A stretch of 64,000 bases of DNA from Candidatus Poseidoniia archaeon. GTDB lineage: Archaea > Thermoplasmatota > Poseidoniia > MGIII > CG-Epi1. Each line of letters starts with the position of its first letter. The stretch's first letter is position 1. Under the pieces are notes generated by a model. The model was not told where the DNA came from. It saw nothing but the letters and a program-made list of their open reading frames with translations, and ran no database searches. Shown piece after piece: positions 24,773-44,194 of this stretch. The stretch covers positions 1,427-65,426 of the forward strand of contig JAPYSW010000001.1 in NCBI GenBank assembly GCA_029936395.1. The letters run 5' to 3'. A program made the translations under genes and the position numbers.

Positions 24773-25729
24773 ATGGAAGCTATAATTCTAGTAGGGGGAT
24801 TTGGGACCAGACTTAGACCCTTAACTCATACAGTTCCAAAACCATTACTTCCTCTAGCAAATATCCCAATGGTAGAGCGTATGATTCGGAATTTACCTGA
24901 AGTGTTTGACACTGCCATTTTAGCAGTCAATTATGGTTTAAAAGATATGAAAGAATATTTTAAAGGAAGGGACGTCGGAAAGAAAGTTGTACTTGTTCCA
25001 GAAGATGAACCATTAGGGACTGGAGGTGCAATGCGAAACTGCATTGATTATGTTACAGGTACTACTGCAGTATTCAATGGAGATATAGTAAGTTCTATAG
25101 ACTTAAATAAAATGTTAGAACAACATATAAGAACCAAAGCTAAAGGAACGCTTGCATTATGGAAAGTTGCAGATCCAAACCGATTTGGTGTTGTTGAATT
25201 TAAAAATGGAGAAATATTGCAATTTCAGGAGAAGCCCGAGAAAGGGACCGAATTATCAAACCTAATTAATGCTGGAACCTATCTATTGGAACCTGAAATA
25301 TTAGAGATGATACCTCCCAAACAAAAAATTTCTATTGAAAGAGAAATATATCCTAAAGTTGCCGGAGAGGGGTTACATGGTTTTCCGTTTGAAGGATACT
25401 TTATCGATGCTGGAACACCGGAATCCTATCTTGAAGCAAATTTCAAATCAATCGGAAATAATGGAACTGCAGCCCACACTGGAGCAAATATACGAGGCTC
25501 TGTCATGATACACGAAAATGCAAAATTAGAACATTGTATCATTGGGCCCAAGGCAATTATTGGACCTAATGTTAAGCTTGAGAAATGTATAATTAGAAAC
25601 TCGGTGATTCTTTCTGATGTCAATGGCTATGGTAGTGTTGTAGAAGAAAGCATTATAGGGCCAAACATAAAATTTGAAGAGGATGTGAACCGAAGTTTAA
25701 TATCCCCTAAAGGTCAAATAACATTTTAG
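24773..25729 (+). CDS. Sugar-phosphate nucleotidyltransferase with C-terminal left-handed beta-helix (GDP-mannose/NDP-sugar pyrophosphorylase-like)
   Basis: 318 aa. It has the N-terminal signature MEAIILVGGFGTRLRPLT and C-terminal hexapeptide repeats. Confidence 0.8.
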   Translation: MEAIILVGGFGTRLRPLTHTVPKPLLPLANIPMVERMIRNLPEVFDTAILAVNYGLKDMKEYFKGRDVGKKVVLVPEDEPLGTGGAMRNCIDYVTGTTAVFNGDIVSSIDLNKMLEQHIRTKAKGTLALWKVADPNRFGVVEFKNGEILQFQEKPEKGTELSNLINAGTYLLEPEILEMIPPKQKISIEREIYPKVAGEGLHGFPFEGYFIDAGTPESYLEANFKSIGNNGTAAHTGANIRGSVMIHENAKLEHCIIGPKAIIGPNVKLEKCIIRNSVILSDVNGYGSVVEESIIGPNIKFEEDVNRSLISPKGQITF

Positions 25730-25736
25730 ATTAATT

Positions 25737-26378
25737 ATGCCACTTAAAATTATTCAAATCCCAGTTGGACCATTGGTAATGAATGCTACACTAGTAATGG
25801 ATATAGAAAGTAAAGAAACTATATTTTTTGATCCAGGTGATGAAATTGAAAATATATTAAAAGTTGCTAAATCTGAAAACATGAATATTGTTAGACTAAT
25901 AGCAACTCACTGTCATGTGGATCATATTGCTGGAGCAAAACTTGCAATTGAAAAATTGAGATTGCCTCTTGAAATATGTCCTTTAGGAAAAGAAATGCTC
26001 GGAAGCGTAGGTCCAATTGCTGCAGCGTTCGGATATATAGCCTCTGAAATCAAAGAAGGTGGATATCTTAATGAAGGAGATATTGTAAACATTGGTGAAA
26101 CTAAATTTCGTATTTTACATTGTCCCGGACATAGCCCCGATTCACTCTGTTTTTACACAGATGGAGTTTTGATAGGAGGTGATGTTATCTTTAAAGGTAG
26201 TCTGGGAAGAACTGATTTACCTGGCGGGAATACTGAACAATTAATGAATTCTATTACTGAAAAAATCTATTTATTACCTGACGAAACCACTATTTATTCA
26301 GGACATGGCCCTAAAACCATATTAGGAATAGAAAAGAAACAAAATCCTTATCTTAATGGGACATTGAGACTAGCATAG
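25737..26378 (+). CDS. Metallo-beta-lactamase-fold hydrolase (glyoxalase II-like)
   Basis: 213 aa with the HCHVDHIAG (HxHxDH) motif, and downstream His/Asp ligands. Confidence 0.7.
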   Translation: MPLKIIQIPVGPLVMNATLVMDIESKETIFFDPGDEIENILKVAKSENMNIVRLIATHCHVDHIAGAKLAIEKLRLPLEICPLGKEMLGSVGPIAAAFGYIASEIKEGGYLNEGDIVNIGETKFRILHCPGHSPDSLCFYTDGVLIGGDVIFKGSLGRTDLPGGNTEQLMNSITEKIYLLPDETTIYSGHGPKTILGIEKKQNPYLNGTLRLA

Positions 26379-26412
26379 TAATGTTTATATCGATTTCATA
26401 ATTAAGGTAAAA

Positions 26413-27900
26413 TTGATGAGCTATGAGAAATATAATGAAAAAGTAAAAAAAATCTCAGAATCCATCAAATTAAATAAGAAATTAATTACTACAAATCGGA
26501 AAGGACATAATTACAGAGATTTGAAATTTAAAAAGAATCAAAACCGAATTGATACTGGAAATCTAACAAATATACTTTCAATAGATGGCAAATATATTGA
26601 TTGTGAATCTGCAGTAACTATAGGTAAAGTGAACCGGGCAACAATTCCAAGGAAAAAAATAATCCCCTCTCTACCAGAAGGAGATAATTTTACAGTAGGG
26701 GGATGTCTTGCTGGATTAGGTTTAGGATCAAGTTCATACATTCATGGTTTTTTTAATGATAATGTAATCGATTTTGATATTGTCCTAGGCAACGGCGAGA
26801 TAATGAAAAATGTTTCAAAGTTGAAAAATCCTGATCTATATTATGGAATCGGAGGAACTTACGGCACGATGGGGATTATCACAAGGGTCAAAACAAAATT
26901 AGTTTCCTGTGAAAAATATGTTAAAGTAAATTACTTTCATTATGACTCATTCGAGAACTTCTATGAAGAATTTCAAAGAAAAATTAAGAAGAAGAATGAC
27001 GACTTCATTGAAGCTTTTCAGAATAAAAAAGAAGATTATACTATCGTAACTGCAAATTTTATCAGCGATGTAAATCCTAATGATGTTTCAGTCATAAAAG
27101 ATAAAGATATTTTAAAACAGCGTCACATGTGTATTTATGCACAAATCGCAAAGAAAAAGAAATCGAGTTATTTGAGATTACTGGACTACTTAGAACGATA
27201 TAGTTATTCTGCTTTTTGGGGACATTATCTATACTCTCCTTATAAGATTAGAGATTATATTTATGCTGGATTGATGTATTCACTGATACCTAAGAAAATA
27301 TTAGACGCATCTCCAGGCCATGGGAAGTATAATATTTCTAAATATTTTCATGCTGCCAATCGTATAGTTGGAGATTATACTAGAGATGAATACGTTATTG
27401 CTACAGATATTGGAGTGCCACTATCAAAATTAAAAGGTGCGATAGATTTAGCAGATGAAATGACAGGGACATACCCTCGCTGGTTATGCCCAATAATAGA
27501 CAATCATAATCCGGAAAAAATATTTTGTACAAGAAAGACTGATATTTGTAAAGATGATATCATTATTGATTTAGGAATATACGGAATTAAAAACACCAAT
27601 AACAAGTCAAAGAGAATAAATCAAGCATTTGAAAAATTTTCTTTTGATAACGGTATTTTCAAAGGTTTTTTTTCTACTTGTTATTTTACTTATGATGATT
27701 TTTGGAAACAATTTGATAAACAAAAATATGAAAATATTAGGAAAAAATATCATGCTGATAAGAACTTTATGGATATATATGATAAGATAAACTATCGAAA
27801 TAAAGTAAAAAACGGAAATTTAAGAAGCAAACTATTCACTTTCTTTGGAAAGAAATACTTGAGACAAATTAATAAAAATAAGGATACATTAATTAAATAA
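26413..27900 (+). CDS. DHCR24/Diminuto-like FAD-linked oxidoreductase
   Basis: 495 aa. TVGGCLAGLGLGSSSYIHGFF...IVLGNGE...PDLYYGIGGTYGTMGIITRVKTKLV...KYVKVNY aligns block-for-block with the delta24-sterol reductase FAD-binding region. The gene is very Lys/Asn/Tyr/Ile-rich. Confidence 0.55.
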   Translation: MMSYEKYNEKVKKISESIKLNKKLITTNRKGHNYRDLKFKKNQNRIDTGNLTNILSIDGKYIDCESAVTIGKVNRATIPRKKIIPSLPEGDNFTVGGCLAGLGLGSSSYIHGFFNDNVIDFDIVLGNGEIMKNVSKLKNPDLYYGIGGTYGTMGIITRVKTKLVSCEKYVKVNYFHYDSFENFYEEFQRKIKKKNDDFIEAFQNKKEDYTIVTANFISDVNPNDVSVIKDKDILKQRHMCIYAQIAKKKKSSYLRLLDYLERYSYSAFWGHYLYSPYKIRDYIYAGLMYSLIPKKILDASPGHGKYNISKYFHAANRIVGDYTRDEYVIATDIGVPLSKLKGAIDLADEMTGTYPRWLCPIIDNHNPEKIFCTRKTDICKDDIIIDLGIYGIKNTNNKSKRINQAFEKFSFDNGIFKGFFSTCYFTYDDFWKQFDKQKYENIRKKYHADKNFMDIYDKINYRNKVKNGNLRSKLFTFFGKKYLRQINKNKDTLIK

Positions 27901-27903
27901 GAT

Positions 27904-28512
27904 ATGAAAACATTAATAGTAGGAAATAGGCCACTAAATAGTAATATAATTGATTTAGCAAAGGATAAACTCGTAATTGCAGCAGATGGAGGGGCTGATC
28001 GATTATTAAAACACAATATTATGCCTGATTACATAATTGGAGATTTAGATTCGATATCTGATAAAAATGCGACAAAACTAGAAGAATGGATTGTTTCAAA
28101 TAAAAATATTCAAAAAACAGATTTAGAAAAAGCAGTTGATTATGCAATTGAAAAGGGTTCAACTGATATTCAGATAGTTGGATGGTCTGGTGGTAGAATA
28201 GACCATACCTTGGCAGCATTAGGTTTAGTATTTAACTCTAAAATTAGTCTTATTGATGAACACTTTACAATACAAGCTATTCTCGATTCAAAACAAATAG
28301 AAGGTGCTGAGAATACCTTATTTTCACTCATTGCAATGCCTGAGGCTCGCGTTAGCGTTACAGGAGCAAGATGGAATCTTCAACATGAAAAATTAACCAT
28401 GGGAGGGAGAGGCGTGCATAATGAAATAGGACCTACCGGAACTGTAACTATCGATTGTCATAGCGGAAATCTACTACTAATTCAAGGTAATTTTGTATTG
28501 CCTCACGATTGA
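27904..28512 (+). CDS. thiamine pyrophosphokinase
   Basis: 202 aa. ...LVIAADGGADRL...PDYIIGDLDSIS is the TPK catalytic signature, with a C-terminal thiamin-binding beta-domain. Confidence 0.75.
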   Translation: MKTLIVGNRPLNSNIIDLAKDKLVIAADGGADRLLKHNIMPDYIIGDLDSISDKNATKLEEWIVSNKNIQKTDLEKAVDYAIEKGSTDIQIVGWSGGRIDHTLAALGLVFNSKISLIDEHFTIQAILDSKQIEGAENTLFSLIAMPEARVSVTGARWNLQHEKLTMGGRGVHNEIGPTGTVTIDCHSGNLLLIQGNFVLPHD

Positions 28513-29942
28513 CTATTTTCTATCTCAGAAACTAGAAAAGTCATTAAGGCTGAACCAAGAAGTGCAGATACAAATACCTCAAGATTGGCTAGGTCAACCT
28601 CATTAACGGGATTTGTCAGATAATCTATTCCAGTTTGTAAATCTGAAGTGTAAGTACCATAAATCACTACTGAAAGCAATCCAAAAATAGATCCGGCCAA
28701 ACCTCCATTGGCGGTAACTCTATTAGATAAGGATAAGAAAATCGGAAGTACTGTCGCTGCTGCAAACAAATCGGCCACCAAAAAAATTCTGAAAACACTT
28801 AATGCATCTTCGGAATAATACCATGCCAATATAATTGCAATTGGAGCTATAGCAATTACGCCATATCGGGTCTGTTGGATATCAAACTTAGAATCTGTTA
28901 AATCTCTAGAAACCACGGCAATAACTGCATTTTGAAGTGTATCTATACTAGAACAAACTAAAGCTACACCGAGAACTAATAACATAGCCAATATTGGTTC
29001 TGGGTAATCATGAATTAGTTCAAAAAATGCAATAGAAGGATCAATAATAGCCCCTCGACCAGCAGTGACTGTCCCTAAAAAACCAAATAGTAATACTGCA
29101 ATAAAACAAAGAACTGAGGCCATAATTGCCCCTTTCTGTAAAGCTTTATCATCTTTTGAAGCCCAAGTGCGCTGCCAATTACCCTGTGAAAACATTTCTG
29201 CAGCAGTTATTGCTAATACCAGTGCTAAACCTGCTTTAAATGTTGAATAATCACTAATACTTCCATGGTGCCATCCTGATTCAATATCTTCGGGAGTGTA
29301 GGCTCTAGCATCATCAATGGAACTACCAATACCTTCATTGAGAATAAGTAAAATAATACAAATTATCAACCAAATTATGAATAATGACTGTATGCGATCA
29401 GTCTTAATTGAAACAGGTAGACCACCAATTACTGTGTAAAAAGTTGTAACGACTGCAACACAAACTATAGGAACTAAAAAATCAATTCCCGATAAAAATT
29501 CAACGGCACGTCCAATTGCAATATACTCTGCAAACATAAATGTAAACATATAAATTATAGAAATTATACCTACATAAATTTGCATTGGGCGACCCATTTT
29601 CTGACGAACAAAATCTGCAAGAGTCACACCATCGGGAGTTAATCTACGAATTATAGGACCTAAATAAGCTAATAAAAGAAATGGAGTGGCTGAAGATAAA
29701 GCATACCCAAATACATCATAGAATCCACCATAATACCCAACTTCTGAAGGGCTAAAGAGAATCCATATCCCCATCCCAGAAGCAAACAAACTAAGTCCAA
29801 TCATTATCCAATTTTGACTACCGCGAGCTGATAAAAAATAGTCATTATCTAATTCATTTTCTGAAGACTCTCGATAACCTAGCCAAGCAAAAAAAGCTAA
29901 TGAACTGAACAATAAGATATAAGCAATACTTGAAGATATCAT
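28503..29942 (-). CDS. Sodium:solute symporter family transporter (ThiV-like candidate)
   Basis: 479 aa with about 13 TM segments and SSS topology. It is co-oriented with, and 4-nt overlapped by, the upstream ThiR-like gene. Confidence 0.75.
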   Translation of the reverse strand: MISSSIAYILLFSSLAFFAWLGYRESSENELDNDYFLSARGSQNWIMIGLSLFASGMGIWILFSPSEVGYYGGFYDVFGYALSSATPFLLLAYLGPIIRRLTPDGVTLADFVRQKMGRPMQIYVGIISIIYMFTFMFAEYIAIGRAVEFLSGIDFLVPIVCVAVVTTFYTVIGGLPVSIKTDRIQSLFIIWLIICIILLILNEGIGSSIDDARAYTPEDIESGWHHGSISDYSTFKAGLALVLAITAAEMFSQGNWQRTWASKDDKALQKGAIMASVLCFIAVLLFGFLGTVTAGRGAIIDPSIAFFELIHDYPEPILAMLLVLGVALVCSSIDTLQNAVIAVVSRDLTDSKFDIQQTRYGVIAIAPIAIILAWYYSEDALSVFRIFLVADLFAAATVLPIFLSLSNRVTANGGLAGSIFGLLSVVIYGTYTSDLQTGIDYLTNPVNEVDLANLEVFVSALLGSALMTFLVSEIENSQS

Positions 29943-30775
29943 GCCATAACTTCCATGGACTGGCCTAAATTTTCAACAATTTTACAAACCCTTTCATGAT
30001 TCTTTCCAATAATGTATAAAGAAGGTTCGAAACCATAACCACCTTCATCTATCAAAGCTTCAGCTTCTGTTGATTCCTTATGAACTGATAACTTTTCTCC
30101 AACTCTTTCTAACTTAGCAGATACAATCTGCAATTTTTCTAATATATCTGAAACAATAGAATCCCATCTAAGATTGATTATTACTAATATTTTTGAATCA
30201 AACTTTCGCAATTCTAATAATAAATTTGACAAATGAAAAGACCCCCCAAATTTTGCTGAAGAAAGTGGGCGAGCCTGACCTCCAATAGGCGTTAAACGAC
30301 CTGGAAAAGCTGCAACATCTGATACTTCAACAGCTTCATTTGTTGCTATCGCAATATTCACTCTTACTTGTGGAGAAAGTAAAGGAATTACTCTTGCCAA
30401 GCGTTTTCGCATATCTGTAATCTTAACCAAGGTCCTTTCACGACTACCCTGAACTGGAAAATTTATATTCAATTCATGATTATCAACTTGAATTGATAAT
30501 TTCCAAGATGAGGCATCACCTTCTTTGAGAATCTCGGCTAATGATTTTGCAGCTACTTGCAAGTCACTTTCAATTGGTTCTTTGTAACGTGTTGGTAATG
30601 TATGTAAATAATTACCAGCCATTACTTGACTAACTCCTAAAGCATTACCAAGACGTGATTGAGTCCAACCATCTTCAGCAAGTATTCTACAAGAACGGCC
30701 TCTTAATTCTTTGAATAAACTACTAGTCAATTCTACTGGCATCATATTAATCAGTTCTAAAATATAATAAGCCAT
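29939..30775 (-). CDS. thiR: ThiR-like transcriptional regulator (N-terminal HTH plus ThiN thiamine-phosphate-synthase-like domain)
   Basis: 278 aa. An HTH (SQSRLGNALGVSQVMAGNYL) is followed by a ThiN-like domain (...AKFGGSFHLSNLL..., ...EPSLYIIG...). Confidence 0.65.
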   Translation of the reverse strand: MAYYILELINMMPVELTSSLFKELRGRSCRILAEDGWTQSRLGNALGVSQVMAGNYLHTLPTRYKEPIESDLQVAAKSLAEILKEGDASSWKLSIQVDNHELNINFPVQGSRERTLVKITDMRKRLARVIPLLSPQVRVNIAIATNEAVEVSDVAAFPGRLTPIGGQARPLSSAKFGGSFHLSNLLLELRKFDSKILVIINLRWDSIVSDILEKLQIVSAKLERVGEKLSVHKESTEAEALIDEGGYGFEPSLYIIGKNHERVCKIVENLGQSMEVMA

Positions 30776-30812
30776 TTATAAAATTTATGTAAGCCTTTTA
30801 GCAAGGGGTCTA

Positions 30813-32153
30813 ATGAACTTTGGTTTAAAGAGGTTAAATTTGGCAAAAAATATACCAGTATCAAAAAAAATATTAGAAGAGATATTTGATGAAACCGGAT
30901 TCGATCAAAATAATTTATCCATCCGTGAAACAAATCGTTTAGCTACAATTATAAGTAAAAAAAGCAATATTGAATTCATTAGAATGGAAATGGGAATTCC
31001 AAACATACCTCCTTCTAATATTGCTAAAGAAGCTGAAAAAGAAGCTATTGACAAAGGAATGCAAGGCTTCTATCCACCCTTTGATGGAATTCCCGAACTA
31101 AAATTTGCAGGAAGTGAATTTGTTAAAGCCTTTTTAGATATAAATGTAGGTCCTGAGAATGTAATTCCAACATGTGGTTCATTACAAGGAGGGTATATTT
31201 CGCAAGCCCTAGCTGGAAATATGTACCCGGGAAAAGACACTATTTTATATTTGGACCCTACCTTTCCAGTAACAAGATATCAAGCTAAATTCTTAGGATT
31301 GAACAGTAAAGGCATTGAACTATACGATAATAGGGGTGACGAATTAATTAAAGCCATTAATGAAAAAGTTGAAAATGGCAATATAGGAGGTATTCTTTGG
31401 TCATCTCCAAATAACCCTAGTTGGTCTTGCCTAACTGAAAGTGAATTAGAAGGTATTGCCGATATTTGTGACAATAATAATATATTAGCAATTGAAGATT
31501 TAGCATATTTAGGAATGGACTTTAGAAAAGATTATTCACAACCTCATCAAAAACCATATATCCCTACAATTGGAAAATTTGGAACAAAGTGGGTAACCTT
31601 AATTTCAGCCTCCAAAGCGTTTTCATTACCAGGGCCAAGATGTGGACTTGCAATTATTTCTCCGAAGTTAGATAAAATGGAATTTCAGGGGCTCGAAGAT
31701 TTTTGTGGTAGAAAACGATTTGGACATGCCTTTTCTTTGGGTGGATTGTATGTCACTACATCAGGAGTTAGCCATACTGCTCAATTTGCTTTAGCTAAAA
31801 TACTGAAAGCATCTACTGATGGGGAATTCAATTTTGTTAAGATTACTAGCGAATATGGAGAAAGAGCCAAGCATGTCAGAAAGCTTTTCTTAAAATATGG
31901 TTTCAAACAAGTTTACAAAAAAGATATGGATGAAACTGTTGGTGATGGCTTCTACCTAACTATGTCTTATCCAAATTTTGATGGAAATAATTTAATGCTA
32001 GAATTGATGAGATATGGAATTTCAACAATTACTCTAAAATCGACCGGTTCAAATAGACATGAGGGGTTGCGAATTTGTATTTCTTTTGTAGATTTGAAGG
32101 ATATGCCACTTCTAGAAGAGAAATTAAAACGATTTATGGAGACTAATACTTGA
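30813..32153 (+). CDS. PLP-dependent aminotransferase, class I/II fold
   Basis: 446 aa with the PLP-lysine region ISASKAFSLPGPRCGLAI. Confidence 0.7.
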   Translation: MNFGLKRLNLAKNIPVSKKILEEIFDETGFDQNNLSIRETNRLATIISKKSNIEFIRMEMGIPNIPPSNIAKEAEKEAIDKGMQGFYPPFDGIPELKFAGSEFVKAFLDINVGPENVIPTCGSLQGGYISQALAGNMYPGKDTILYLDPTFPVTRYQAKFLGLNSKGIELYDNRGDELIKAINEKVENGNIGGILWSSPNNPSWSCLTESELEGIADICDNNNILAIEDLAYLGMDFRKDYSQPHQKPYIPTIGKFGTKWVTLISASKAFSLPGPRCGLAIISPKLDKMEFQGLEDFCGRKRFGHAFSLGGLYVTTSGVSHTAQFALAKILKASTDGEFNFVKITSEYGERAKHVRKLFLKYGFKQVYKKDMDETVGDGFYLTMSYPNFDGNNLMLELMRYGISTITLKSTGSNRHEGLRICISFVDLKDMPLLEEKLKRFMETNT

Positions 32154-38671: not shown

Positions 38672-38746
38672 TGGAGCCATCGGTGGGAATCGAACCCACG
38701 ACCTGCGCCTTACCAAGGCACCGCTATACCCCTTAGCCACGATGGC
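38672..38746 (-). tRNA. tRNA-Thr (anticodon GGU)
   Basis: Hand-folded cloverleaf with a perfect 7-bp acceptor (GCCATCG/CGATGGC), D-stem GCTA/TAGC, anticodon stem GTGCC/GGCGC with loop TTGGTAA, T-arm GTGGG-TTCGATT-CCCAC and an encoded CCA. Its 3-prime end abuts the flpA stop codon. Confidence 0.8.
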
Positions 38747-38857: not shown

Positions 38858-41800
38858 ATGGTAACATACATAACTAATAGAAAAACTAAAGAAGAAGTTT
38901 TGAATGGTTTTGAACCTTTAATTCGAACTTGGTTTAATAACAAGTTTGATGATTTAACTCCGCCTCAGGCAATGGCAGTCCCATTAATAGAGAAAAATAA
39001 AAATGTCCTTGTTTCAAGTCCAACCGGGACTGGGAAAACCTTAACTGCATTTTTAAGTATTCTAAATAATTTTCTTAAACTCCACCGTGAAGATAATTTT
39101 GAAGATGGTGTCCATGCAATCTATATTTCACCGTTAAAAGCTCTCGCAAATGACATTGATCGAAATTTAAAACAACCTCTTGAAGAAATGATGGTATTGG
39201 CTAAAGAATTAGAAATAGACGTACCTGAAATTAAAGTAGCAGTTAGATCAGGTGATACGTCACTTAAAGAAAGAGCGCGGATGGTTAGGAAGCCACCACA
39301 TATCATAATTACTACTCCTGAAAGTTTAGGTCTTTTATTATCATCCAAAAAATTTAGAGACCATTTCAAAAGAACTAAATATATTATTTTAGATGAGATA
39401 CACGACTTAGCCAATAATAAGAGAGGCACACACCTATCACTTTCCGTTGAAAGATTGGCTCAGATTATCGATCGTGAACCTGTAAGAATAGGATTATCTG
39501 CAACTCAAGCACCTATTGAAGATATTGCGGGATTTCTAGGAGGGTACTACCAAGGGAAACCAAGGCATGTAAATATTGTAGATGTTAAGGAAAGAAAACA
39601 TTTAGACCTAAGGGTTCTTTGCCCTGTCGACGATCTTACTTTACATTCGACCGAAGTTATTAATTCGAAAATGTATGATCTTCTCGTGGATTTAATTAAA
39701 GATCACCGAACCACTTTAATTTTCACAAATACAAGAGCCGGAACTGAATCTATTTCATTACAACTTAAAGAAAGAGGAATCGAAAAATTAGCTGCACATC
39801 ACGGTTCATTATCAAAAGAAATGAGATTTGATGTTGAGAAAAAATTAAAAGGAGGAGAAATGGATGTCGTAATTTCTTCAACGAGTCTTGAATTGGGGAT
39901 AGATATTGGATATGTGGACTTAGTTGTTCAAATTGGATCCCCTAAATCTATTGCAAAAGGCCTACAACGTATTGGAAGATCTGGGCATGCTTTAAGAGCC
40001 ATATCAAAAGGTAGACTGGTTGTATTTGATTCCGACGATTTAATTGAATGTGCCGTTTTAGTTAGATCGGCTTATGCTGGAGAAATTGATCGTGTTTCAA
40101 TACCTGAAAAAGCTACTGATGTTTTAGCTCAGTCTATCATTGGAATGTCATTGGATAGAACATGGAATGTTGAGGAAATGTATAAACTCATAATTTCGGC
40201 ATACCCATATCGTAATTTATCTAAAAATGAATTTTTAGAAATATTGGATTTCTTGGGTGGAAATGCATTAGAAAAACACGGTGTTTATCCTAAAATTTGG
40301 TATGATAAAACTGTAGGTGAAATTGGAATAAAAAGAGGTTCACGTCAAATTTATAATATGAATATAGGTACCATTCCGCAGGAGATAAACTATGCAGTCG
40401 TCCTTGAAGGAAGAGGCGCCCAATTAGGGAACTTATCTGAAAAATTTGTTGAAAATCTATCCAAAAATGATATTTTTGTTCTGGGAGGGCGAACATATCA
40501 ATTTTTAGAATCGAATAGATCTACTGTGGTTGTAAAAGATGGACTTGGGAGAAAACCAACCGTACCTTCTTGGTCTGGAGAAATGTTACCGCGTTCTTTT
40601 GATTTATCTGAAGCTGTTGGAAGATTCAGAGGTGAAGTTGAGGAAAAATTAAAACTTACCGAAGAAGAAATTTATAGTTGGCTTGAAGATGAATTTAAAT
40701 TAGACAAAGGTGCTGCTAGAACTATAATCTCGCATTTAGATGAACAGAAGAAAATTTGTGGATTTATCCCTTCAGACAAAGATCTTATGGTTGAAGGATA
40801 TATCGATAATAGGGGACGGAATGGAGCAATATTCCATTTTCCTTTTGGTAGAAGAGTCAATGATGCTTTGGCAAGAGCATTTGCATTCCAACTAGGAAAC
40901 GAAATTGGAGGAAGTGTTAGGATTTCATTAAGTGATGATGCATTTTTATTAACATTTCCGACTAGATTGGCAATTGAAGGAATTGCTGACAGACTAATGC
41001 CAAAAAATTTAGAACCATTATTACGGAAATCTATTGCCAATACCGAAATCTTTGCACAAAGATTTAGACACTGTGCTAATCGTTCATTCATGGTTCTACG
41101 GAACTACAAAGGTAGAGAAATATCATTACCAAGGCAACAATTGAGAACCGCACAAGTTTTAGAAGCCATTAATGAAGTTGGTACTTTTCCTATGCTAGAA
41201 GAAGCATATCGTGAAGTATTACATGATGCTTTTGATTTAAAAAATGCACAAGTCATTATAGATGATATTGAAAATGGAAAAAGAAAGATTCATTACAGAA
41301 CTTATTCACCAGTTCCATCTCCCTTATCTCATAGTTTAATCCTATCTGGACTTAGTGATATTGTTCTAATGGAGGATCGTTCCGCCCTATTAAGGGAATT
41401 ACATTCTCAAGTATTAGGGAGAGTTCTTGAAGAAGGGGGTGGAGACAAACCTAGATTTGAAAAAGATATGATAGAAGGATACTTCAACGAAAAGAAACCT
41501 ATTATTGGAAGCAATGAAGGAGTAATTCAAGCGATAAAACAAATTGGTGGAATTTATCTATTAAATGATCAAGAAAAATCAATCTATCGCATGTCTGATA
41601 TGCCTACTACCGAAATACAAGAACTATGTAACTATATGATTGAAGAAAATATTGTAGAATCTGTATGGAATGGAAATAAGGATTCATTATTTGTTATGCC
41701 TGAAATGGTTCCATATTACAAGGCAATTTATGGTATTGATGAAAAATTATCAAAACAAGCTAAGAAAGTATATGACAAATTAGAAAAAGTAAAAGATATT

Positions 41801-44194
41801 AAATCAAAAAAAATCTGTGAAGAATTAGAACAAAACTATTTGGTTTGTAAAACTCCAAATGGAATTATAAGAAGAGATATCAAGACTACAATATCCTACG
41901 AAAAAGCATTAGATTGGGTAATTATCAAGCATTTGGGATTTACAGGTCCTAGATCTAAAGAGGACATTTCCTTAGAACTTAGATTGCCTGAAGAAATTAT
42001 TAATCAAACATTATACGAACTTGAAGAACAAGGCACAATACAAGGTGGAAACTTTATTTTAGGACGAAGTTCGCCACAATATCTCTTAGCTGAAGATATA
42101 ATCTACTTAGAAGCTCAAGCTTTAGGAAATATAGACGTAGTTCCAGAAAAAATATTAAGAGAATATATCGATCAAAAACTTTTCAAGAAATTTCCAAGTC
42201 TCCAAACTTTATTTGATCAACATAATGATGTTGCATCGCCTCGAACTGTTTTCCATAGATTAGAAAATCCTGATTTAGAAGAGTGGTGGGAATGGAGAGA
42301 CTCGGATGCAATATTACAAGGCCGATTTTCAGCCGGGAAATTGAGATACGTACCCGCCAATAGAGTTGGAATATATCAAGCTTTATTCAGAAGAGAAGCT
42401 GATGGAAAAATACAGAATTTAATTGTAGATATGTTAAAGAGAAGCCCACCTCTTTCAAAAAGCGAAATTACAAAAGAATTGGAAATAAAAACCGAATTAG
42501 TAGACGGGGCACTAAGAGCATTAGAAGAAAAACTCATGATTCATCGCTACAATAGACATAGAAATCCCTGGACAACACATAATCGTTATCGTCTTCTTAA
42601 TGAATATGAAGCACCTGAAAAACCAGAAAGAAAGTTAATGATTGATCAATTACGAAGCAATGGGCCTCTAACTTTTGCTGAATTAAGAAGAGAATGTGGA
42701 TTGCCACTAAATATAACTCGAAATATTTTAAATTCACTTCAAGAAGAGAATTTAATAGCGAAAATTGTAGTGGTTGGAGCCACCCGTCTCTTCACTTATT
42801 GTCTCAAAGAGGAAGTTGAACTCATTAAAAATACTATTGAGAAAAGAACTGTGCGAGTGACCTCATGGAGAGATCCAATCCTAACTCATATTAGAAGAGA
42901 AATGTATTCGTCATATGGTGAGGCATGGACTAATCCAATCATTTGTGGAGGAATGGTAGCCGGATATATGGAATCTTGGGCGATGTCAGGATTATTAGAT
43001 GTTAGAGAAGTAATTCTTGATGACGATACCCCAATTAGCGATTTCTTAGATGGTTTAGATGAATTTGCAACTTATCAAGAAAATTTCCACAGTAATATCA
43101 TAAGAGTAAAGGCTTTTGCTAGCACAAAAGTTGAAGATTTAGATGAAGATATTATAAACCAATTTGAACAGAAAGGGTACCAGAGAATACGGAATTGGTT
43201 AGTTAAAGGTCCAGTGATAAATAGAACATATCAAGAAAGGGAAATCTATGGATATTTACTGTGGAGACAATGTATACATCCTGAAAAAAGATACAATGAT
43301 GCCTCAATGGCATTCCGTGAAATGGGAGGAGTACGATCTGAATATGAATTATCATTAAGAATTCAGGGGCGTTTCTTTCATCCAAGAGATTATGGAAATG
43401 AAATGGAATTAGTTCAAGGAGTTATGATTCCAGGATACTCAACTTACTGCACCGTTAGAGATGCAATTATCTATCGTGATGCTCGAAATATGCCACCTGA
43501 ACCTGATGACCGAAGATTATTGGCCCTAGCTATTGATTCAAAAGGATTACCAAGAGAAGAATTATATCGTAGAAGTGGAATGGATCCTGATTCTTTCAAA
43601 CAATCTTTAGCTAGACTTTATCAATCTTTAAATTTAGTAAGAACTACAAGAGGAAACTATCGGACCTTACCAGTCAATCGAATCTATGAACCTGAAGAAG
43701 CAAAATTCAATGTTGTGAAAAGACTAATCATGTCATTCGGTATTGTTTCTGCTGAAGGGCTTGGAATGCTTTTGAAAGGTGAAATCCCAATGGCTGAACT
43801 TAGAAGTATTCTTCTAAGACTAGAATCTGAAGAAATTCTTGTTAAAGGATTTTTAAAAGAAGATAGTGATATACTCTATTGGATTCTAAAAAATGATCTA
43901 GAACATGTTAAAGGTCACTTATTTCAAGGAAGTTTCGTTCTAAATCAAGGCGACCGATTAGCCCATTATCTTAGTGAAGATGTTAAGCAAAAGTTTGGAT
44001 TAGGGGCATGTAATGTTATTTTTAGTTCAACGCGAATGACTGGAGCCTTTAAAATGTCAAAAAGAGGTAAGGATGTCACTATAACTGAATTTAAGGGAAC
44101 AAATCATGAGAGGCATGTTATCGAAGCATGGTGCCGTCAATGGAGACTCAATTTAGAATGGGAACTCAAAACTGATGAAAAGGTTGAAGTTTAA
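38858..44194 (+). CDS. lhr: Lhr-type large ATP-dependent helicase (long, bacterial-type, with a multi-winged-helix C-terminal region)
   Basis: 1778 aa. The Lhr-core N-terminus has Walker A SSPTGTGKT, DEIH (ILDEIHDLAN), motif VI (QRIGRSGH) and Lhr domain 4. The ~900-aa C-terminal extension has repeated WH-like segments. Confidence 0.85.
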   Translation: MVTYITNRKTKEEVLNGFEPLIRTWFNNKFDDLTPPQAMAVPLIEKNKNVLVSSPTGTGKTLTAFLSILNNFLKLHREDNFEDGVHAIYISPLKALANDIDRNLKQPLEEMMVLAKELEIDVPEIKVAVRSGDTSLKERARMVRKPPHIIITTPESLGLLLSSKKFRDHFKRTKYIILDEIHDLANNKRGTHLSLSVERLAQIIDREPVRIGLSATQAPIEDIAGFLGGYYQGKPRHVNIVDVKERKHLDLRVLCPVDDLTLHSTEVINSKMYDLLVDLIKDHRTTLIFTNTRAGTESISLQLKERGIEKLAAHHGSLSKEMRFDVEKKLKGGEMDVVISSTSLELGIDIGYVDLVVQIGSPKSIAKGLQRIGRSGHALRAISKGRLVVFDSDDLIECAVLVRSAYAGEIDRVSIPEKATDVLAQSIIGMSLDRTWNVEEMYKLIISAYPYRNLSKNEFLEILDFLGGNALEKHGVYPKIWYDKTVGEIGIKRGSRQIYNMNIGTIPQEINYAVVLEGRGAQLGNLSEKFVENLSKNDIFVLGGRTYQFLESNRSTVVVKDGLGRKPTVPSWSGEMLPRSFDLSEAVGRFRGEVEEKLKLTEEEIYSWLEDEFKLDKGAARTIISHLDEQKKICGFIPSDKDLMVEGYIDNRGRNGAIFHFPFGRRVNDALARAFAFQLGNEIGGSVRISLSDDAFLLTFPTRLAIEGIADRLMPKNLEPLLRKSIANTEIFAQRFRHCANRSFMVLRNYKGREISLPRQQLRTAQVLEAINEVGTFPMLEEAYREVLHDAFDLKNAQVIIDDIENGKRKIHYRTYSPVPSPLSHSLILSGLSDIVLMEDRSALLRELHSQVLGRVLEEGGGDKPRFEKDMIEGYFNEKKPIIGSNEGVIQAIKQIGGIYLLNDQEKSIYRMSDMPTTEIQELCNYMIEENIVESVWNGNKDSLFVMPEMVPYYKAIYGIDEKLSKQAKKVYDKLEKVKDIKSKKICEELEQNYLVCKTPNGIIRRDIKTTISYEKALDWVIIKHLGFTGPRSKEDISLELRLPEEIINQTLYELEEQGTIQGGNFILGRSSPQYLLAEDIIYLEAQALGNIDVVPEKILREYIDQKLFKKFPSLQTLFDQHNDVASPRTVFHRLENPDLEEWWEWRDSDAILQGRFSAGKLRYVPANRVGIYQALFRREADGKIQNLIVDMLKRSPPLSKSEITKELEIKTELVDGALRALEEKLMIHRYNRHRNPWTTHNRYRLLNEYEAPEKPERKLMIDQLRSNGPLTFAELRRECGLPLNITRNILNSLQEENLIAKIVVVGATRLFTYCLKEEVELIKNTIEKRTVRVTSWRDPILTHIRREMYSSYGEAWTNPIICGGMVAGYMESWAMSGLLDVREVILDDDTPISDFLDGLDEFATYQENFHSNIIRVKAFASTKVEDLDEDIINQFEQKGYQRIRNWLVKGPVINRTYQEREIYGYLLWRQCIHPEKRYNDASMAFREMGGVRSEYELSLRIQGRFFHPRDYGNEMELVQGVMIPGYSTYCTVRDAIIYRDARNMPPEPDDRRLLALAIDSKGLPREELYRRSGMDPDSFKQSLARLYQSLNLVRTTRGNYRTLPVNRIYEPEEAKFNVVKRLIMSFGIVSAEGLGMLLKGEIPMAELRSILLRLESEEILVKGFLKEDSDILYWILKNDLEHVKGHLFQGSFVLNQGDRLAHYLSEDVKQKFGLGACNVIFSSTRMTGAFKMSKRGKDVTITEFKGTNHERHVIEAWCRQWRLNLEWELKTDEKVEV

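What the first reader, a model, noticed from the sequence alone, without database searches (positions are those of the whole stretch)
27904..30812. ThiR (HTH+ThiN) regulator, SSS-family transporter operon, convergent with thiamine pyrophosphokinase: a compact thiamine salvage module
The 278-aa protein at 29939..30775 combines an HTH with a ThiN-like domain (AKFGGSFHL). This is the architecture described for the archaeal thiamine regulator ThiR. Its stop overlaps by 4 nt the start of a 479-aa sodium:solute symporter family transporter. SSS members (ThiV) have been predicted to transport the HMP or thiamine moiety in archaea. The transporter gene ends 10 nt inside the convergent thiamine pyrophosphokinase gene. 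Regulator, uptake and TPP formation are thus packed into 2.9 kb, and no ThiC/ThiE de novo genes are visible here. This looks like a self-contained, ThiR-autoregulated salvage unit. The substrate of the SSS transporter is untested.
Basis: partly seen in the sequence, partly recalled or inferred. Interest (0 to 1): 0.55.

Follow-up and report, generated by a model that had tools for sequence, protein, structure and literature searches.

The report
Protein-regulated thiamine uptake operon, marine archaeon
A marine Group III archaeon couples a thiamine-sensing repressor-type protein (ThiR) to a ThiV-family vitamin B1/precursor importer next to thiamine pyrophosphokinase; in sister archaea and bacteria the same transporter is controlled by a TPP riboswitch, so this is a known kind of salvage module in a new lineage with a different regulator.

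Summary
All three genes exist, and all three domain calls pass curated thresholds (ThiN 99 bits, SSS 77 bits, TPK equivalog 136 vs 76 bits). The window comes from a Marine Group III (Poseidoniia) archaeon.

Corrections:
- The regulator starts 10 codons later than annotated: 29939..30745, 268 aa.
- TPK is not in the regulator's operon. It is the last gene of a convergent, unrelated operon.
- The window shows no palindromic operator.

New evidence settles the transporter's family:
- It scores 164-205 bits against SAR11 ThiV, algal SSSP and Candida Dur31, and only 37-55 bits against PutP, PanF, OpuE and SiaT.
- It carries all three published ThiV/SSSP signature residues.
- Its relatives sit directly behind TPP riboswitches in at least 18 of 37 MGII-type archaeal loci and 14 of 20 bacterial loci.
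- The window and the MGIII loci scanned have no riboswitch. There the regulator's stop overlaps the transporter's start by 4 nt (19 of 19 loci).
- In four relatives a ThiBPQ-like thiamine ABC importer occupies exactly that slot.

The best reading is a ThiR-repressed thiV operon feeding TPK. The substrate is probably intact thiamine, with HMP not excluded. This is a new member of known kinds and of moderate interest, mainly because a protein regulator and a riboswitch control orthologous genes.

The parts
29939..30745 (-). thiR: 268-aa HTH + ThiN regulator (the longest ORF runs to 30775, but the true start is Met11)
   Evidence: ORF. All 17 aligned homologues start at MMPVEL. PF10120 scores 99 bits. 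The AF2 model has pLDDT 81. 37 genome loci are nearly all MGIII/Poseidoniia.
30596..30745 (-). N-terminal helix-turn-helix domain (residues 1-50), the most conserved part of the protein
   Evidence: AF2 predicts helices 4-24, 29-36 and 40-49 with pLDDT ~90. The profile matches the HipB Xre-type HTH at E=0.07-0.14 across helix2-turn-helix3. Pfam HTH_31 gives E=0.18. Top Foldseek matches are Xre/Cro HTH proteins, but all at E>=0.4. 46% of columns are invariant, against 24% in the ThiN part.
29972..30382 (-). ThiN-like ligand-binding domain (Pfam match), with conserved PGR and FGGSxH motifs
   Evidence: PF10120. PDB 2PHP E=4e-8 and 2PB9 E=5e-5. Foldseek TM 0.77 and 0.75 to these ThiN domains. The Arg and His are invariant in 42 homologues.
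28503..29942 (-). thiV: ThiV/SSSP/Dur31-family Na+:thiamin/HMP symporter, translationally coupled to thiR
   Evidence: PF00474. BLASTP gives 164-205 bits to ThiV/SSSP/Dur31 and 37-55 bits to PutP/PanF/OpuE/SiaT, and the tree agrees. Signature residues Y80, E139 and F251-S252 are present. Relatives lie behind TPP riboswitches.
29939..29942 (-). ATGA overlap of the thiR stop and the thiV start (operon junction)
   Evidence: Coordinates. The -4 nt overlap holds in 19 of 19 related loci. The same overlap joins thiR to the ABC binding-protein gene in L012.
27904..28512 (+). Thiamine pyrophosphokinase (TPK), convergent with thiV; last gene of the operon 24773..28512
   Evidence: TIGR01378 135.8 bits against a 76.4 cut-off, plus PF04263 and PF04265. 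It lies 3 nt after the upstream FAD-binding gene. Adjacency to thiV holds in both clades even though the upstream partner differs.
30746..30812 (.). Divergent promoter spacer between thiR and the class I/II aminotransferase gene; presumed site of ThiR action
   Evidence: Sequence. Alignment of 27 related spacers shows conserved blocks. No inverted repeat in the window. No TPP riboswitch at E<=10.
30787..30806 (-). Conserved box 1 (CCTTGCTAAAAGGCTTACAT), immediately upstream of the TATA-like element; candidate operator or BRE
   Evidence: Unique in the window at up to 3 mismatches. Nearly invariant core CCCTT..AAAAG.TTT in 27 loci. It forms a perfect 18-bp palindrome in L006 but not in the window.
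30774..30783 (-). TATA-like element TTTTATAAAT, 29-38 nt upstream of the thiR ATG
   Evidence: Conserved TTTATAA column block. Its assignment as a TATA box is an inference from archaeal promoter architecture.
30746..30760 (-). Conserved box 2 (..AACTGATTAAT) abutting the start codon; Shine-Dalgarno-like GTGAT/CTGAT and/or an operator over the transcription start
   Evidence: Consensus tAtAA.TGAtTAATA in 27 loci. Its function is not resolved.

Best explanation
This is a two-gene operon, thiR-thiV, in a Marine Group III archaeon, lying next to the gene for thiamine pyrophosphokinase. ThiV is a sodium-coupled importer of the thiamin/HMP symporter family. It brings in vitamin B1 (most likely intact thiamine), which TPK converts in one step to the cofactor TPP. 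ThiR is a DNA-binding protein whose C-terminal ThiN-like domain senses thiamine phosphates. When these are plentiful, ThiR binds the shared promoter upstream of thiR and shuts off both its own synthesis and that of the transporter. When they are scarce, it releases the DNA and uptake is induced. Shown here: gene identities, family membership of the transporter, operon structure, conservation, thiamine linkage of the transporter family through riboswitches, and absence of a riboswitch in this lineage. Inferred: repression by ThiR, its effector, the binding site, and the substrate (thiamine rather than HMP).
For: Regulator. The ThiN domain scores 99 bits and its fold has TM 0.77 to the MJ0236 ThiN domain. 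The N-terminus is a three-helix HTH and is the most conserved part of the protein. This HTH+ThiN architecture is the one that defines ThiR; that definition rests on my recollection of Rodionov 2017 and Hwang 2017, which are cited in PMC12029414 and PMC8305020. [quoted passage not shown]

Transporter. It is closest to SAR11 ThiV (192 bits), SSSP (164-205 bits) and Dur31 (178 bits), against 37-55 bits for PutP/PanF/OpuE/SiaT. All three signature residues are present (the signature comes from PMC11452348). TPP riboswitches at or above Rfam's gathering score end on the start codon of relatives in 18 of 37 MGII-type loci and 14 of 20 bacterial loci. Bacterial relatives sit among thiO, thiE, thiD and tenA.

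Operon. The 4-nt stop/start overlap holds in 19 of 19 loci.

Functional equivalence. In L012, L019, L023 and L024 the same slot after thiR is filled by an ABC importer. Its binding protein passes the thiamine-SBP subfamily cut-off (167 vs 93.4 bits) and its 556-aa permease aligns end to end with ThiP.

TPK. It is an equivalog, and its adjacency survives rearrangement of its own upstream partner.

No riboswitch. None is found in the window, in 7 MGIII-type loci, or by motif in any of 37 genome loci.
Against: No palindromic operator is detectable in the window's spacer. The palindrome seen in some relatives has a poorly conserved right arm, and the conserved blocks could be ordinary promoter or Shine-Dalgarno elements. 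Each line of evidence for the HTH is statistically weak on its own (E=0.07-0.4). The Arg and His needed for ThiN catalysis are conserved, so a catalytic role is not excluded by sequence. The whole ~10-gene neighbourhood is syntenic across MGIII, so TPK adjacency alone is weak evidence. TPK is transcribed from another operon and is probably not ThiR-controlled. The best-studied bacterial family member (SAR11 ThiV) is proposed to carry HMP, and SAR11 cannot use thiamine (PMC11452348). The genome outside 64 kb was not examined.
Confidence: 0.72

Rival explanations
1. The transporter imports the pyrimidine precursor HMP (or a related breakdown product), as proposed for SAR11 ThiV, and not intact thiamine. 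In that case the cell would need ThiD, a thiazole source and a TMP synthase encoded elsewhere, and TPK adjacency would be incidental or would serve a dephosphorylation/re-phosphorylation route.
For: SAR11 ThiV is linked to specific high-affinity HMP uptake (PMC11452348). Bacterial relatives of the window protein cluster with tenA, thiD and thiE, which are pyrimidine-salvage genes. The window protein scores slightly higher against ThiV (192 bits) than against the thiamin transporter Dur31 (178 bits).
Against: The only thiamine enzyme kept beside thiV in two diverged archaeal clades is TPK, which acts on free thiamine. No thiD, thiE or thiM lies within +/-10 kb in any of 37 loci, judging by the recurrent neighbours. 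The slot is interchangeable with a ThiBPQ-like thiamine ABC system. The family includes a proven thiamin transporter (Dur31, PMC5997356).
Confidence: 0.22
2. The 268-aa protein is, or is also, a catalytically active ThiN-type thiamine-phosphate synthase whose N-terminal helices are not a regulator, so that the 'operon' couples precursor uptake to condensation.
For: The catalytic-type Arg (PGR) and His (FGGSxH) are invariant. There is no indel relative to the catalytic ThiDN domains of M. jannaschii and P. furiosus in the helix after the His. NCBI names one homologue 'thiamine-phosphate synthase family protein'.
Against: The N-terminal HTH is under stronger constraint than the ThiN part (46% vs 24% invariant columns) and aligns to the DNA-reading helices of HipB. 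By my recollection of the 2017 papers, ThiR regulators keep these same ligand-binding residues, and the H. volcanii ThiR was inactive as a synthase. No HMP-P kinase or thiazole kinase gene accompanies it.
Confidence: 0.1
3. The SSS protein is a proline-type (PutP-like) or other amino-acid symporter, and its position beside thiR and TPK is inherited gene order without functional meaning.
For: JGI calls homologues 'Na+/proline symporter'. The best NCBIfam equivalog hit is PutP, though at only 59 bits. In 25 of 37 MGII-type loci the gene upstream is a true P5C dehydrogenase at 743-755 bits. The whole neighbourhood is syntenic in MGIII.
Against: The ~120-nt gap between the P5C dehydrogenase gene and the transporter is a full-length TPP riboswitch. 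PutP/OpuE/PanF score only 37-55 bits against 164-205 bits for ThiV/SSSP/Dur31, and they lack the Tyr/Glu/Phe signature. The PutP equivalog score is far below its 515-bit cut-off.
Confidence: 0.03

Closest known systems
ThiR, the archaeal thiamine repressor (Haloferax volcanii; Metallosphaera yellowstonensis; predicted in Thermococci, e.g. P. furiosus PF0601)
   Same: N-terminal HTH plus C-terminal non-fused ThiN domain with conserved Arg/His ligand residues. It is encoded next to, and here co-transcribed with, a thiamine-related transporter. P. furiosus ThiR is listed for 'thiamin transport regulation' (PMC10746257).
   Different: It is found in Poseidoniia (Thermoplasmatota), a lineage I recall as outside the originally described ThiR range and within the phylum where archaeal TPP riboswitches occur. 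No palindromic operator was recognisable. The visible regulon is a single transporter, with no thi4/thiC. Sequence relationship to characterised ThiRs could not be measured because no reference sequences were available.
ThiV / SSSP / SSSQ(Dur31) sodium:solute symporters for HMP or thiamin (SAR11_0811; algal SSSP; Candida Dur31)
   Same: 30-32% identity over the full length. Same clade in the tree. The same three signature residues in TM2, TM3 and TM6. Orthologues and bacterial relatives are preceded by TPP riboswitches, as in SAR11 and fungi.
   Different: The window copy has no riboswitch and is instead translationally coupled to a protein regulator. Its enzyme neighbour is TPK, where the bacterial loci have thiD/thiE/tenA. 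Substrate untested.
TPP-riboswitch-controlled thiV of MGII-type archaea (loci L044-L116 found here)
   Same: Orthologous transporter (50-61% identity). In a few loci (L044, L045, L047, L056) an HTH-ThiN gene is also directly upstream.
   Different: Regulation is by an RNA aptamer that ends on the start codon. The usual upstream gene is P5C dehydrogenase. TPK is not adjacent.
ThiBPQ thiamine ABC importer
   Same: In four MGIII relatives it occupies exactly the position of thiV after thiR, with the same 4-nt overlap and before the same TPK gene. This implies the same physiological role.
   Different: It is an unrelated transporter class (primary active, binding-protein dependent). It is not present in this window. 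The components pass only the subfamily cut-off (binding protein), not the equivalog cut-offs.
Thiamine pyrophosphokinase (THI80 / bacterial ThiN-TPK, TIGR01378)
   Same: Both Pfam domains are present and the equivalog score is above the cut-off.
   Different: Nothing unusual. It is simply the last gene of an otherwise unrelated operon.

Membership tests
ThiR (HTH-ThiN thiamine regulator) | N-terminal helix-turn-helix DNA-binding domain | tested here: met
   AF2 gives a three-helix bundle with pLDDT ~90. The profile aligns helix2-turn-helix3 to HipB (GWTQSxLGxALGVSQVMAGNY vs GWTQSELAKKIGIKQATISNF) at E=0.07-0.14. Pfam HTH_31 E=0.18. Top Foldseek matches are almost all Xre/Cro HTH proteins, but at E>=0.4. 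The lines of evidence agree, though each is sub-threshold on its own.
ThiR (HTH-ThiN thiamine regulator) | C-terminal ThiN domain not fused to ThiD | tested here: met
   PF10120 99.2 bits at residues 132-268, with no Phos_pyr_kin domain. Foldseek TM 0.77 to 2PHP and 0.75 to 2PB9.
ThiR (HTH-ThiN thiamine regulator) | Conserved thiamine-phosphate-binding residues (the Arg and His of ThiN) | tested here: met
   PGR and FG(G/A)SxH are invariant in 42 homologues and aligned to the same motifs in 2PHP and 2PB9. The 21-residue spacing matches the R320/H341 pair, which I recall from Hayashi 2014 (from memory).
ThiR (HTH-ThiN thiamine regulator) | Loss of the catalytic Met / shortened helix that separates ThiR from active ThiDN (Hwang 2017) | not testable with these tools
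   Neither 2017 paper is held, and no H. volcanii ThiR or ThiDN sequences were obtainable. The only observation is that there is no indel relative to ThiDN in the helix after the His.
ThiR (HTH-ThiN thiamine regulator) | Palindromic operator upstream of regulated thiamine genes | tested here: inconclusive
   No inverted repeat in window 30700..30870. Two strongly conserved boxes flank a TATA-like element in 27 loci. An 18-24 bp palindrome occurs in some relatives (L006), but its right arm is not conserved. No second target promoter was available for comparison.
ThiR (HTH-ThiN thiamine regulator) | Genomic linkage to thiamine biosynthesis or transport genes | tested here: met
   Co-transcribed with thiV (4-nt overlap, 19 of 19 loci) or with ThiBPQ-like genes. 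TPK is adjacent.
ThiR (HTH-ThiN thiamine regulator) | Thiamine-phosphate-dependent DNA binding and repression | not testable with these tools
   Requires EMSA or footprinting, or expression data.
ThiV/SSSP/Dur31 thiamin-HMP symporters | Sodium:solute symporter (SSF) fold | tested here: met
   PF00474 77 bits over the full length and TIGR00813 92 bits. The subfamily profile matches SGLT, vSGLT, DUR3 and SiaT structures.
ThiV/SSSP/Dur31 thiamin-HMP symporters | Closer to ThiV/SSSP/Dur31 than to PutP, OpuE, PanF or SiaT | tested here: met
   BLASTP gives 164-205 bits (E 1e-48 to 5e-63) against 37-55 bits. The NJ tree places it inside the ThiV/SSSP/Dur31 clade. PutP and PanF equivalog scores are far below their cut-offs.
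ThiV/SSSP/Dur31 thiamin-HMP symporters | Signature residues: Tyr in TM2 (SiaT 78 region), acidic residue in TM3 (139), Phe plus His/polar in TM6 (254) (PMC11452348) | tested here: met
   The window has VFGY80AL, FAE139Y and F251-S252-QGNWQR, shared with all ThiV/SSSP/Dur31 references and absent from PutP/OpuE/PanF/SiaT.
ThiV/SSSP/Dur31 thiamin-HMP symporters | TPP-riboswitch control of the gene | tested here: not met
   No TPP riboswitch in the window at gathering score or at E<=10 across 27500..31500. The feature is met in relatives: 18 of 37 MGII-type and 14 of 20 bacterial loci. This is a regulatory feature typical of the family and does not define the protein.
ThiV/SSSP/Dur31 thiamin-HMP symporters | Transport of thiamin or HMP | not testable with these tools
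   Needs uptake assays.
Thiamine pyrophosphokinase (TIGR01378) | Catalytic and B1-binding domains; equivalog score | tested here: met
   PF04263 90 bits, PF04265 31 bits, and TIGR01378 135.8 bits against a 76.4 cut-off.
ThiBPQ (in relatives L012, L019, L023, L024 only) | Thiamine-type binding protein, double-domain ThiP permease, ThiQ ATPase | tested here: inconclusive
   The binding protein passes the TIGR01254 subfamily cut-off (157-167 vs 93.4 bits) but not the thiB equivalog (76-88 vs 317). The permease aligns end to end with ThiP but below cut-off (95 vs 679). The ATPase is generic.

The most novel reading that the evidence does not exclude
Within one archaeal class (Poseidoniia), a protein regulator (ThiR) has taken over control of the orthologous thiV gene from a TPP riboswitch. 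Extant lineages show every stage: riboswitch only (most MGII-type loci), an HTH-ThiN gene followed by riboswitch and thiV (L044, L045), an HTH-ThiN gene followed directly by thiV (L047, L056), and a fused thiR-thiV operon (MGIII, this window). In some MGIII genomes ThiV has additionally been exchanged in place for ThiBPQ. This would be a naturally documented replacement of an RNA sensor by a protein sensor of the same metabolite, and it would mark these abundant marine archaea as dedicated vitamin B1 scavengers.
Probability: 0.45. Interest if true: 0.6.

Novelty: new member of a known kind. Interest (0 to 1): 0.45.

Why it matters
Marine Group II and III archaea are among the most abundant heterotrophs in the ocean, and vitamin B1 and its precursors are scarce and traded there. 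I found no paper describing how these archaea obtain B1. This locus indicates that they import a thiamine-family compound through a ThiV-type symporter, or through ThiBPQ in some genomes, and activate it with TPK. It also extends ThiR to Poseidoniia and shows TPP riboswitches on the orthologous gene in MGII-type relatives. That gives a clean comparative system in which the same gene is controlled by an RNA sensor in one lineage and a protein sensor in the next. For annotation, it means the many 'Na+/proline symporter' calls for this protein family are wrong.

Tried and rejected
- The two primary ThiR papers (10.1128/JB.00743-16 / PMC5287396 and PMC5350279) are not held. Published operator motifs and the catalytic-Met criterion could therefore not be applied.
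- The AFDB50 fold library was unavailable.
- The fold search of the isolated N-domain gave no significant match (best E=0.4). I use it only as weak supporting evidence.
- Inverted-repeat search in the window spacer found none.
- A positional dyad-conservation scan over 27+7 aligned spacers found only AT-rich pentamer repeats. The recurrent dyad CTAAAC-N3-GTTTAG lies over the aminotransferase ribosome-binding site and is degenerate in the window's lineage, so it does not qualify as a ThiR operator.
- Box 1 has no second copy in the 64-kb window, so no regulon could be built.
- I looked for an independent TPK promoter in the distant clade to compare motifs, but TPK again overlaps an upstream gene.
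- The proline-transporter idea was raised by the P5C dehydrogenase neighbour and rejected once the spacer proved to be a TPP riboswitch.
- My first regex for riboswitch motifs was mis-specified and found nothing even in positives. It was corrected.
- PDB searches for the two unknown genes downstream of MGII thiV gave nothing.
- Literature searches for thiamine metabolism in MGII, MGIII or Poseidoniales returned nothing specific.


Full report
**Observation**

Profile searches confirm all three domain calls above curated thresholds:
- PF10120 ThiN: 99.2 bits
- PF00474 SSF: 77 bits
- PF04263 plus PF04265, with the TIGR01378 thiamine diphosphokinase equivalog at 135.8 bits against a cut-off of 76.4

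The 4-nt and 10-nt overlaps follow from the coordinates. They are conserved in 19 of 19 and 13 of 13 related loci that could be evaluated.

One correction is needed. Every homologue starts at the second in-frame Met pair (MMPVEL...), so the gene is 29939..30745 and the protein is 268 aa.

**Source organism and context**

The regulator has an identical copy in a 'Methanobacteriota archaeon' MAG. Its 37 genomic relatives are almost all Marine Group III or other Poseidoniia MAGs. G+C is about 35%.

The gene order UDP-glucose dehydrogenase <- class IV aminotransferase <- class I/II aminotransferase | thiR -> SSS -> | <- TPK <- FAD-binding protein <- MBL hydrolase <- nucleotidyltransferase holds across these loci. 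Adjacency alone is therefore weak evidence of function.

In a diverged clade (48-50% regulator identity, G+C >60%) the flanks change, but thiR-SSS-TPK stay together.

TPK is never the first gene of its transcription unit. In the window it follows a FAD-binding gene by 3 nt. In the diverged clade it overlaps a different, 394-aa gene. TPK is thus a conserved neighbour and not a member of the thiR operon.

**The regulator**

AlphaFold (42-sequence alignment, mean pLDDT 81) predicts four elements in order: an N-terminal three-helix bundle, a long helix, a beta-hairpin, and an alpha/beta domain.

The C-terminal domain superposes on the two solved ThiN domains, MJ0236 (TM 0.77) and P. furiosus (TM 0.75). 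It keeps the PGR and FGGSxH motifs that align with theirs.

Evidence for the N-terminal HTH:
- The N-terminal profile aligns its second and third helices to the Xre-type HTH of HipB, at E=0.07-0.14 for five distinct HipB sequences.
- Pfam HTH_31 is seen at E=0.18.
- A fold search of the isolated domain returns almost only Xre/Cro repressors, but at non-significant E-values.
- The HTH segment is the most conserved part of the protein: 46% invariant columns against 24% in the ThiN part. A DNA-reading head would be expected to behave this way.

HTH plus unfused ThiN is the architecture of ThiR. Here I rely on my recollection of Rodionov et al. 2017 and Hwang et al. 2017, which other held papers cite for this role. 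The originals are not in the library. I therefore could not apply the criterion that separates inactive ThiR from active ThiDN.

**The transporter**

This is where the evidence moved furthest.
- NCBIfam places the protein far below every equivalog cut-off: PutP 59 vs 515 bits, PanF 41 vs 328 bits.
- An exhaustive search of 1.84 billion representatives found only 172 relatives at E<=1e-30. They include proteins from an actinobacterial MAG, a chromerid alga and zygomycete fungi.
- Fetching 80 metagenomic loci encoding relatives gave three tiers by identity to the window protein. Tier 1 is 78-92% (MGIII, always with thiR, and with TPK wherever the contig extends far enough). Tier 2 is 50-61% (G+C 0.37-0.58, MGII-like). 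Tier 3 is 33-40% (high G+C, bacterial).

In tier 2 the usual upstream gene is a genuine P5C dehydrogenase (743-755 bits), which raised a proline-transport rival. But the ~120-nt spacer between the two genes contains the hallmark CTGAGA ... ACCTGATCTGGGTAATGCCAGCG motifs. Rfam confirms full-length TPP riboswitches at or above the gathering score, each ending on the transporter's start codon:
- 18 of 37 tier-2 loci
- 14 of 20 tier-3 loci scanned

A motif count raises tier 2 to 21 of 37. Bacterial relatives lie among thiO, thiE, a thiE-thiD fusion and tenA.

**Family membership of the transporter**

The literature defines a family of SSS symporters for HMP or thiamin. It comprises SAR11 ThiV, algal and oomycete SSSP, and Candida Dur31/SSSQ. 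These are typically riboswitch-controlled and have signature residues in TM2, TM3 and TM6 (PMC11452348, PMC5997356).

I used the reference sequences in that paper's supplement.
- The window protein scores 164-205 bits against ThiV, SSSP and Dur31, and only 37-55 bits against PutP, OpuE, PanF and SiaT.
- It falls inside the ThiV/SSSP/Dur31 clade in a neighbour-joining tree.
- It has all three signatures: GY80AL, E139 and F251-S252-QGNWQR. The proline, pantothenate and sialate carriers lack them.

The gene can be called thiV.

**Regulation in this lineage**

The window has no TPP riboswitch, at gathering score or at E<=10 over 27500..31500. None is found in 146 kb of MGIII-type loci either, nor by motif in any of the 37 genome loci. 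Instead, thiV is fused to thiR by an ATGA overlap.

Some MGII-type loci show other arrangements:
- L044 and L045: an HTH-ThiN gene, then a riboswitch, then thiV.
- L047 and L056: an HTH-ThiN gene directly followed by thiV, with no riboswitch.

So orthologous transporter genes in sister lineages are governed by an RNA sensor, a protein sensor, or possibly both.

**An independent clue to function**

In four MGIII relatives (L012, L019, L023, L024) thiV is absent from the slot. It is replaced, with the same 4-nt overlap to thiR in L012 and before the same TPK gene, by a three-gene ABC importer. Its binding protein passes the thiamine-binding subfamily cut-off (157-167 vs 93.4 bits). Its 556-aa double permease aligns end to end with ThiP. 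This in-place exchange argues that ThiV and the ThiBPQ-like system do the same job. Together with the TPK neighbour, it favours intact thiamine as the substrate here. HMP remains possible, because it is the substrate proposed for SAR11 ThiV.

**Operator**

The true spacer (30746..30812) contains three elements:
- a strongly conserved 20-nt box (30787..30806)
- a TATA-like TTTTATAAAT (30774..30783)
- a conserved box abutting the ATG (30746..30760)

The window contains no inverted repeat. A perfect 18-bp palindrome overlapping box 1 exists in L006, but its right arm varies among relatives. A positional dyad scan found nothing conserved that could not be promoter or Shine-Dalgarno sequence. Autoregulation by ThiR at this promoter is thus an inference from architecture and family precedent, not something shown here.

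**Verdict**

As a system it is a new member of known kinds (ThiR, ThiV, TPK) in a lineage where I found no prior description. The more interesting point lies outside the window: the same gene is riboswitch-controlled in MGII-type archaea and in bacteria, and ThiR-coupled in MGIII. The main unknowns are the substrate (thiamine or HMP), whether the ThiN domain is purely a sensor, the operator, and the rest of the genome's thiamine gene content.

Noticed in passing
L066:3911-4012, L044:712-813, L064:3904-4006, and 15 further MGII-type loci: Full-length TPP riboswitches ending on the thiV start codon in MGII-type (Poseidoniales-like) archaeal contigs. The aptamer's 3' end covers the GGAGG ribosome-binding site, which suggests translational control. 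By my recollection, archaeal TPP riboswitches were described only for Thermoplasmatales.
   Followed up: partly
L044:1-813; L045:1134-2113; L047:3038-3917; L056:3110-3998: A divergent HTH-ThiN (ThiR-like) gene, 23-29% identical to the window protein, sits directly upstream of thiV in some MGII-type loci. In L044 and L045 a TPP riboswitch lies between the two genes. In L047 and L056 it does not. These look like possible intermediates in a regulator exchange.
   Followed up: partly
L099:5423-7230; L046:2826-4618; opposite strand in L066:5438-7328: Two conserved genes (~190-200 aa and ~410 aa) lie immediately downstream of riboswitch-controlled thiV in several MGII-type loci, with 3-4 nt gaps. 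They have no Pfam, NCBIfam or PDB match. They could be unknown thiamine-salvage functions, but their orientation is not constant.
   Followed up: partly
L066:2195-3874; L104:2165-3877, and about 23 other tier-2 loci: A P5C (L-glutamate gamma-semialdehyde) dehydrogenase gene is conserved directly upstream of the riboswitch-thiV unit in MGII-type contigs, and a PAP2-family phosphatase-like gene often follows it. The reason for this linkage is unknown. A phosphatase could release thiamine from its phosphates before uptake, but that is speculation.
   Followed up: no
L082:1315-1424 and L082:3768-3863: One bacterial contig carries two TPP riboswitches, one before the thiV homologue and one before a ThiO-like FAD oxidoreductase, with a ThiE-like gene between them.
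   Followed up: no
window 30813-30842: The start of the class I/II aminotransferase gene is ambiguous. The longest ORF starts at ATG 30813, but most relatives start at a TTG equivalent to about 30840, preceded by a GAGG Shine-Dalgarno (30827-30830). In many relatives a CTAAAC-N3-GTTTAG palindrome overlaps this ribosome-binding site. It is degenerate in the window.
   Followed up: partly
window 26413-27900: A 495-aa FAD_binding_4 protein has only weak DprE1/GlcD-like similarity. It lies in the lowest-G+C stretch of the window (0.305), is conserved immediately upstream of TPK in MGIII, and is absent from the diverged clade. Function unknown.
   Followed up: no
P0249 (Vitrella brassicaformis), P0251 (Dimargaris); Eukaryotic proteins from a chromerid alga and zygomycete fungi are among the closest non-Poseidoniia relatives of the window transporter. 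This fits the ThiV/SSSP/Dur31 family spanning all three domains.
   Followed up: partly
window 38858-44194: A very long ORF (1778 aa) on the + strand, next to tRNA-Thr (38672-38746). Not examined.
   Followed up: no
public annotations of P0133, P0161, P0182, P0213, P0219 and P0001, P0025: Homologues of thiV are named 'Na+/proline symporter' by JGI. Homologues of thiR are named 'fused transcriptional regulator/phosphomethylpyrimidine kinase' or 'thiamine-phosphate synthase family protein', and the NCBI copy uses the 278-aa start. These names are misleading in the light of the results here.
   Followed up: yes
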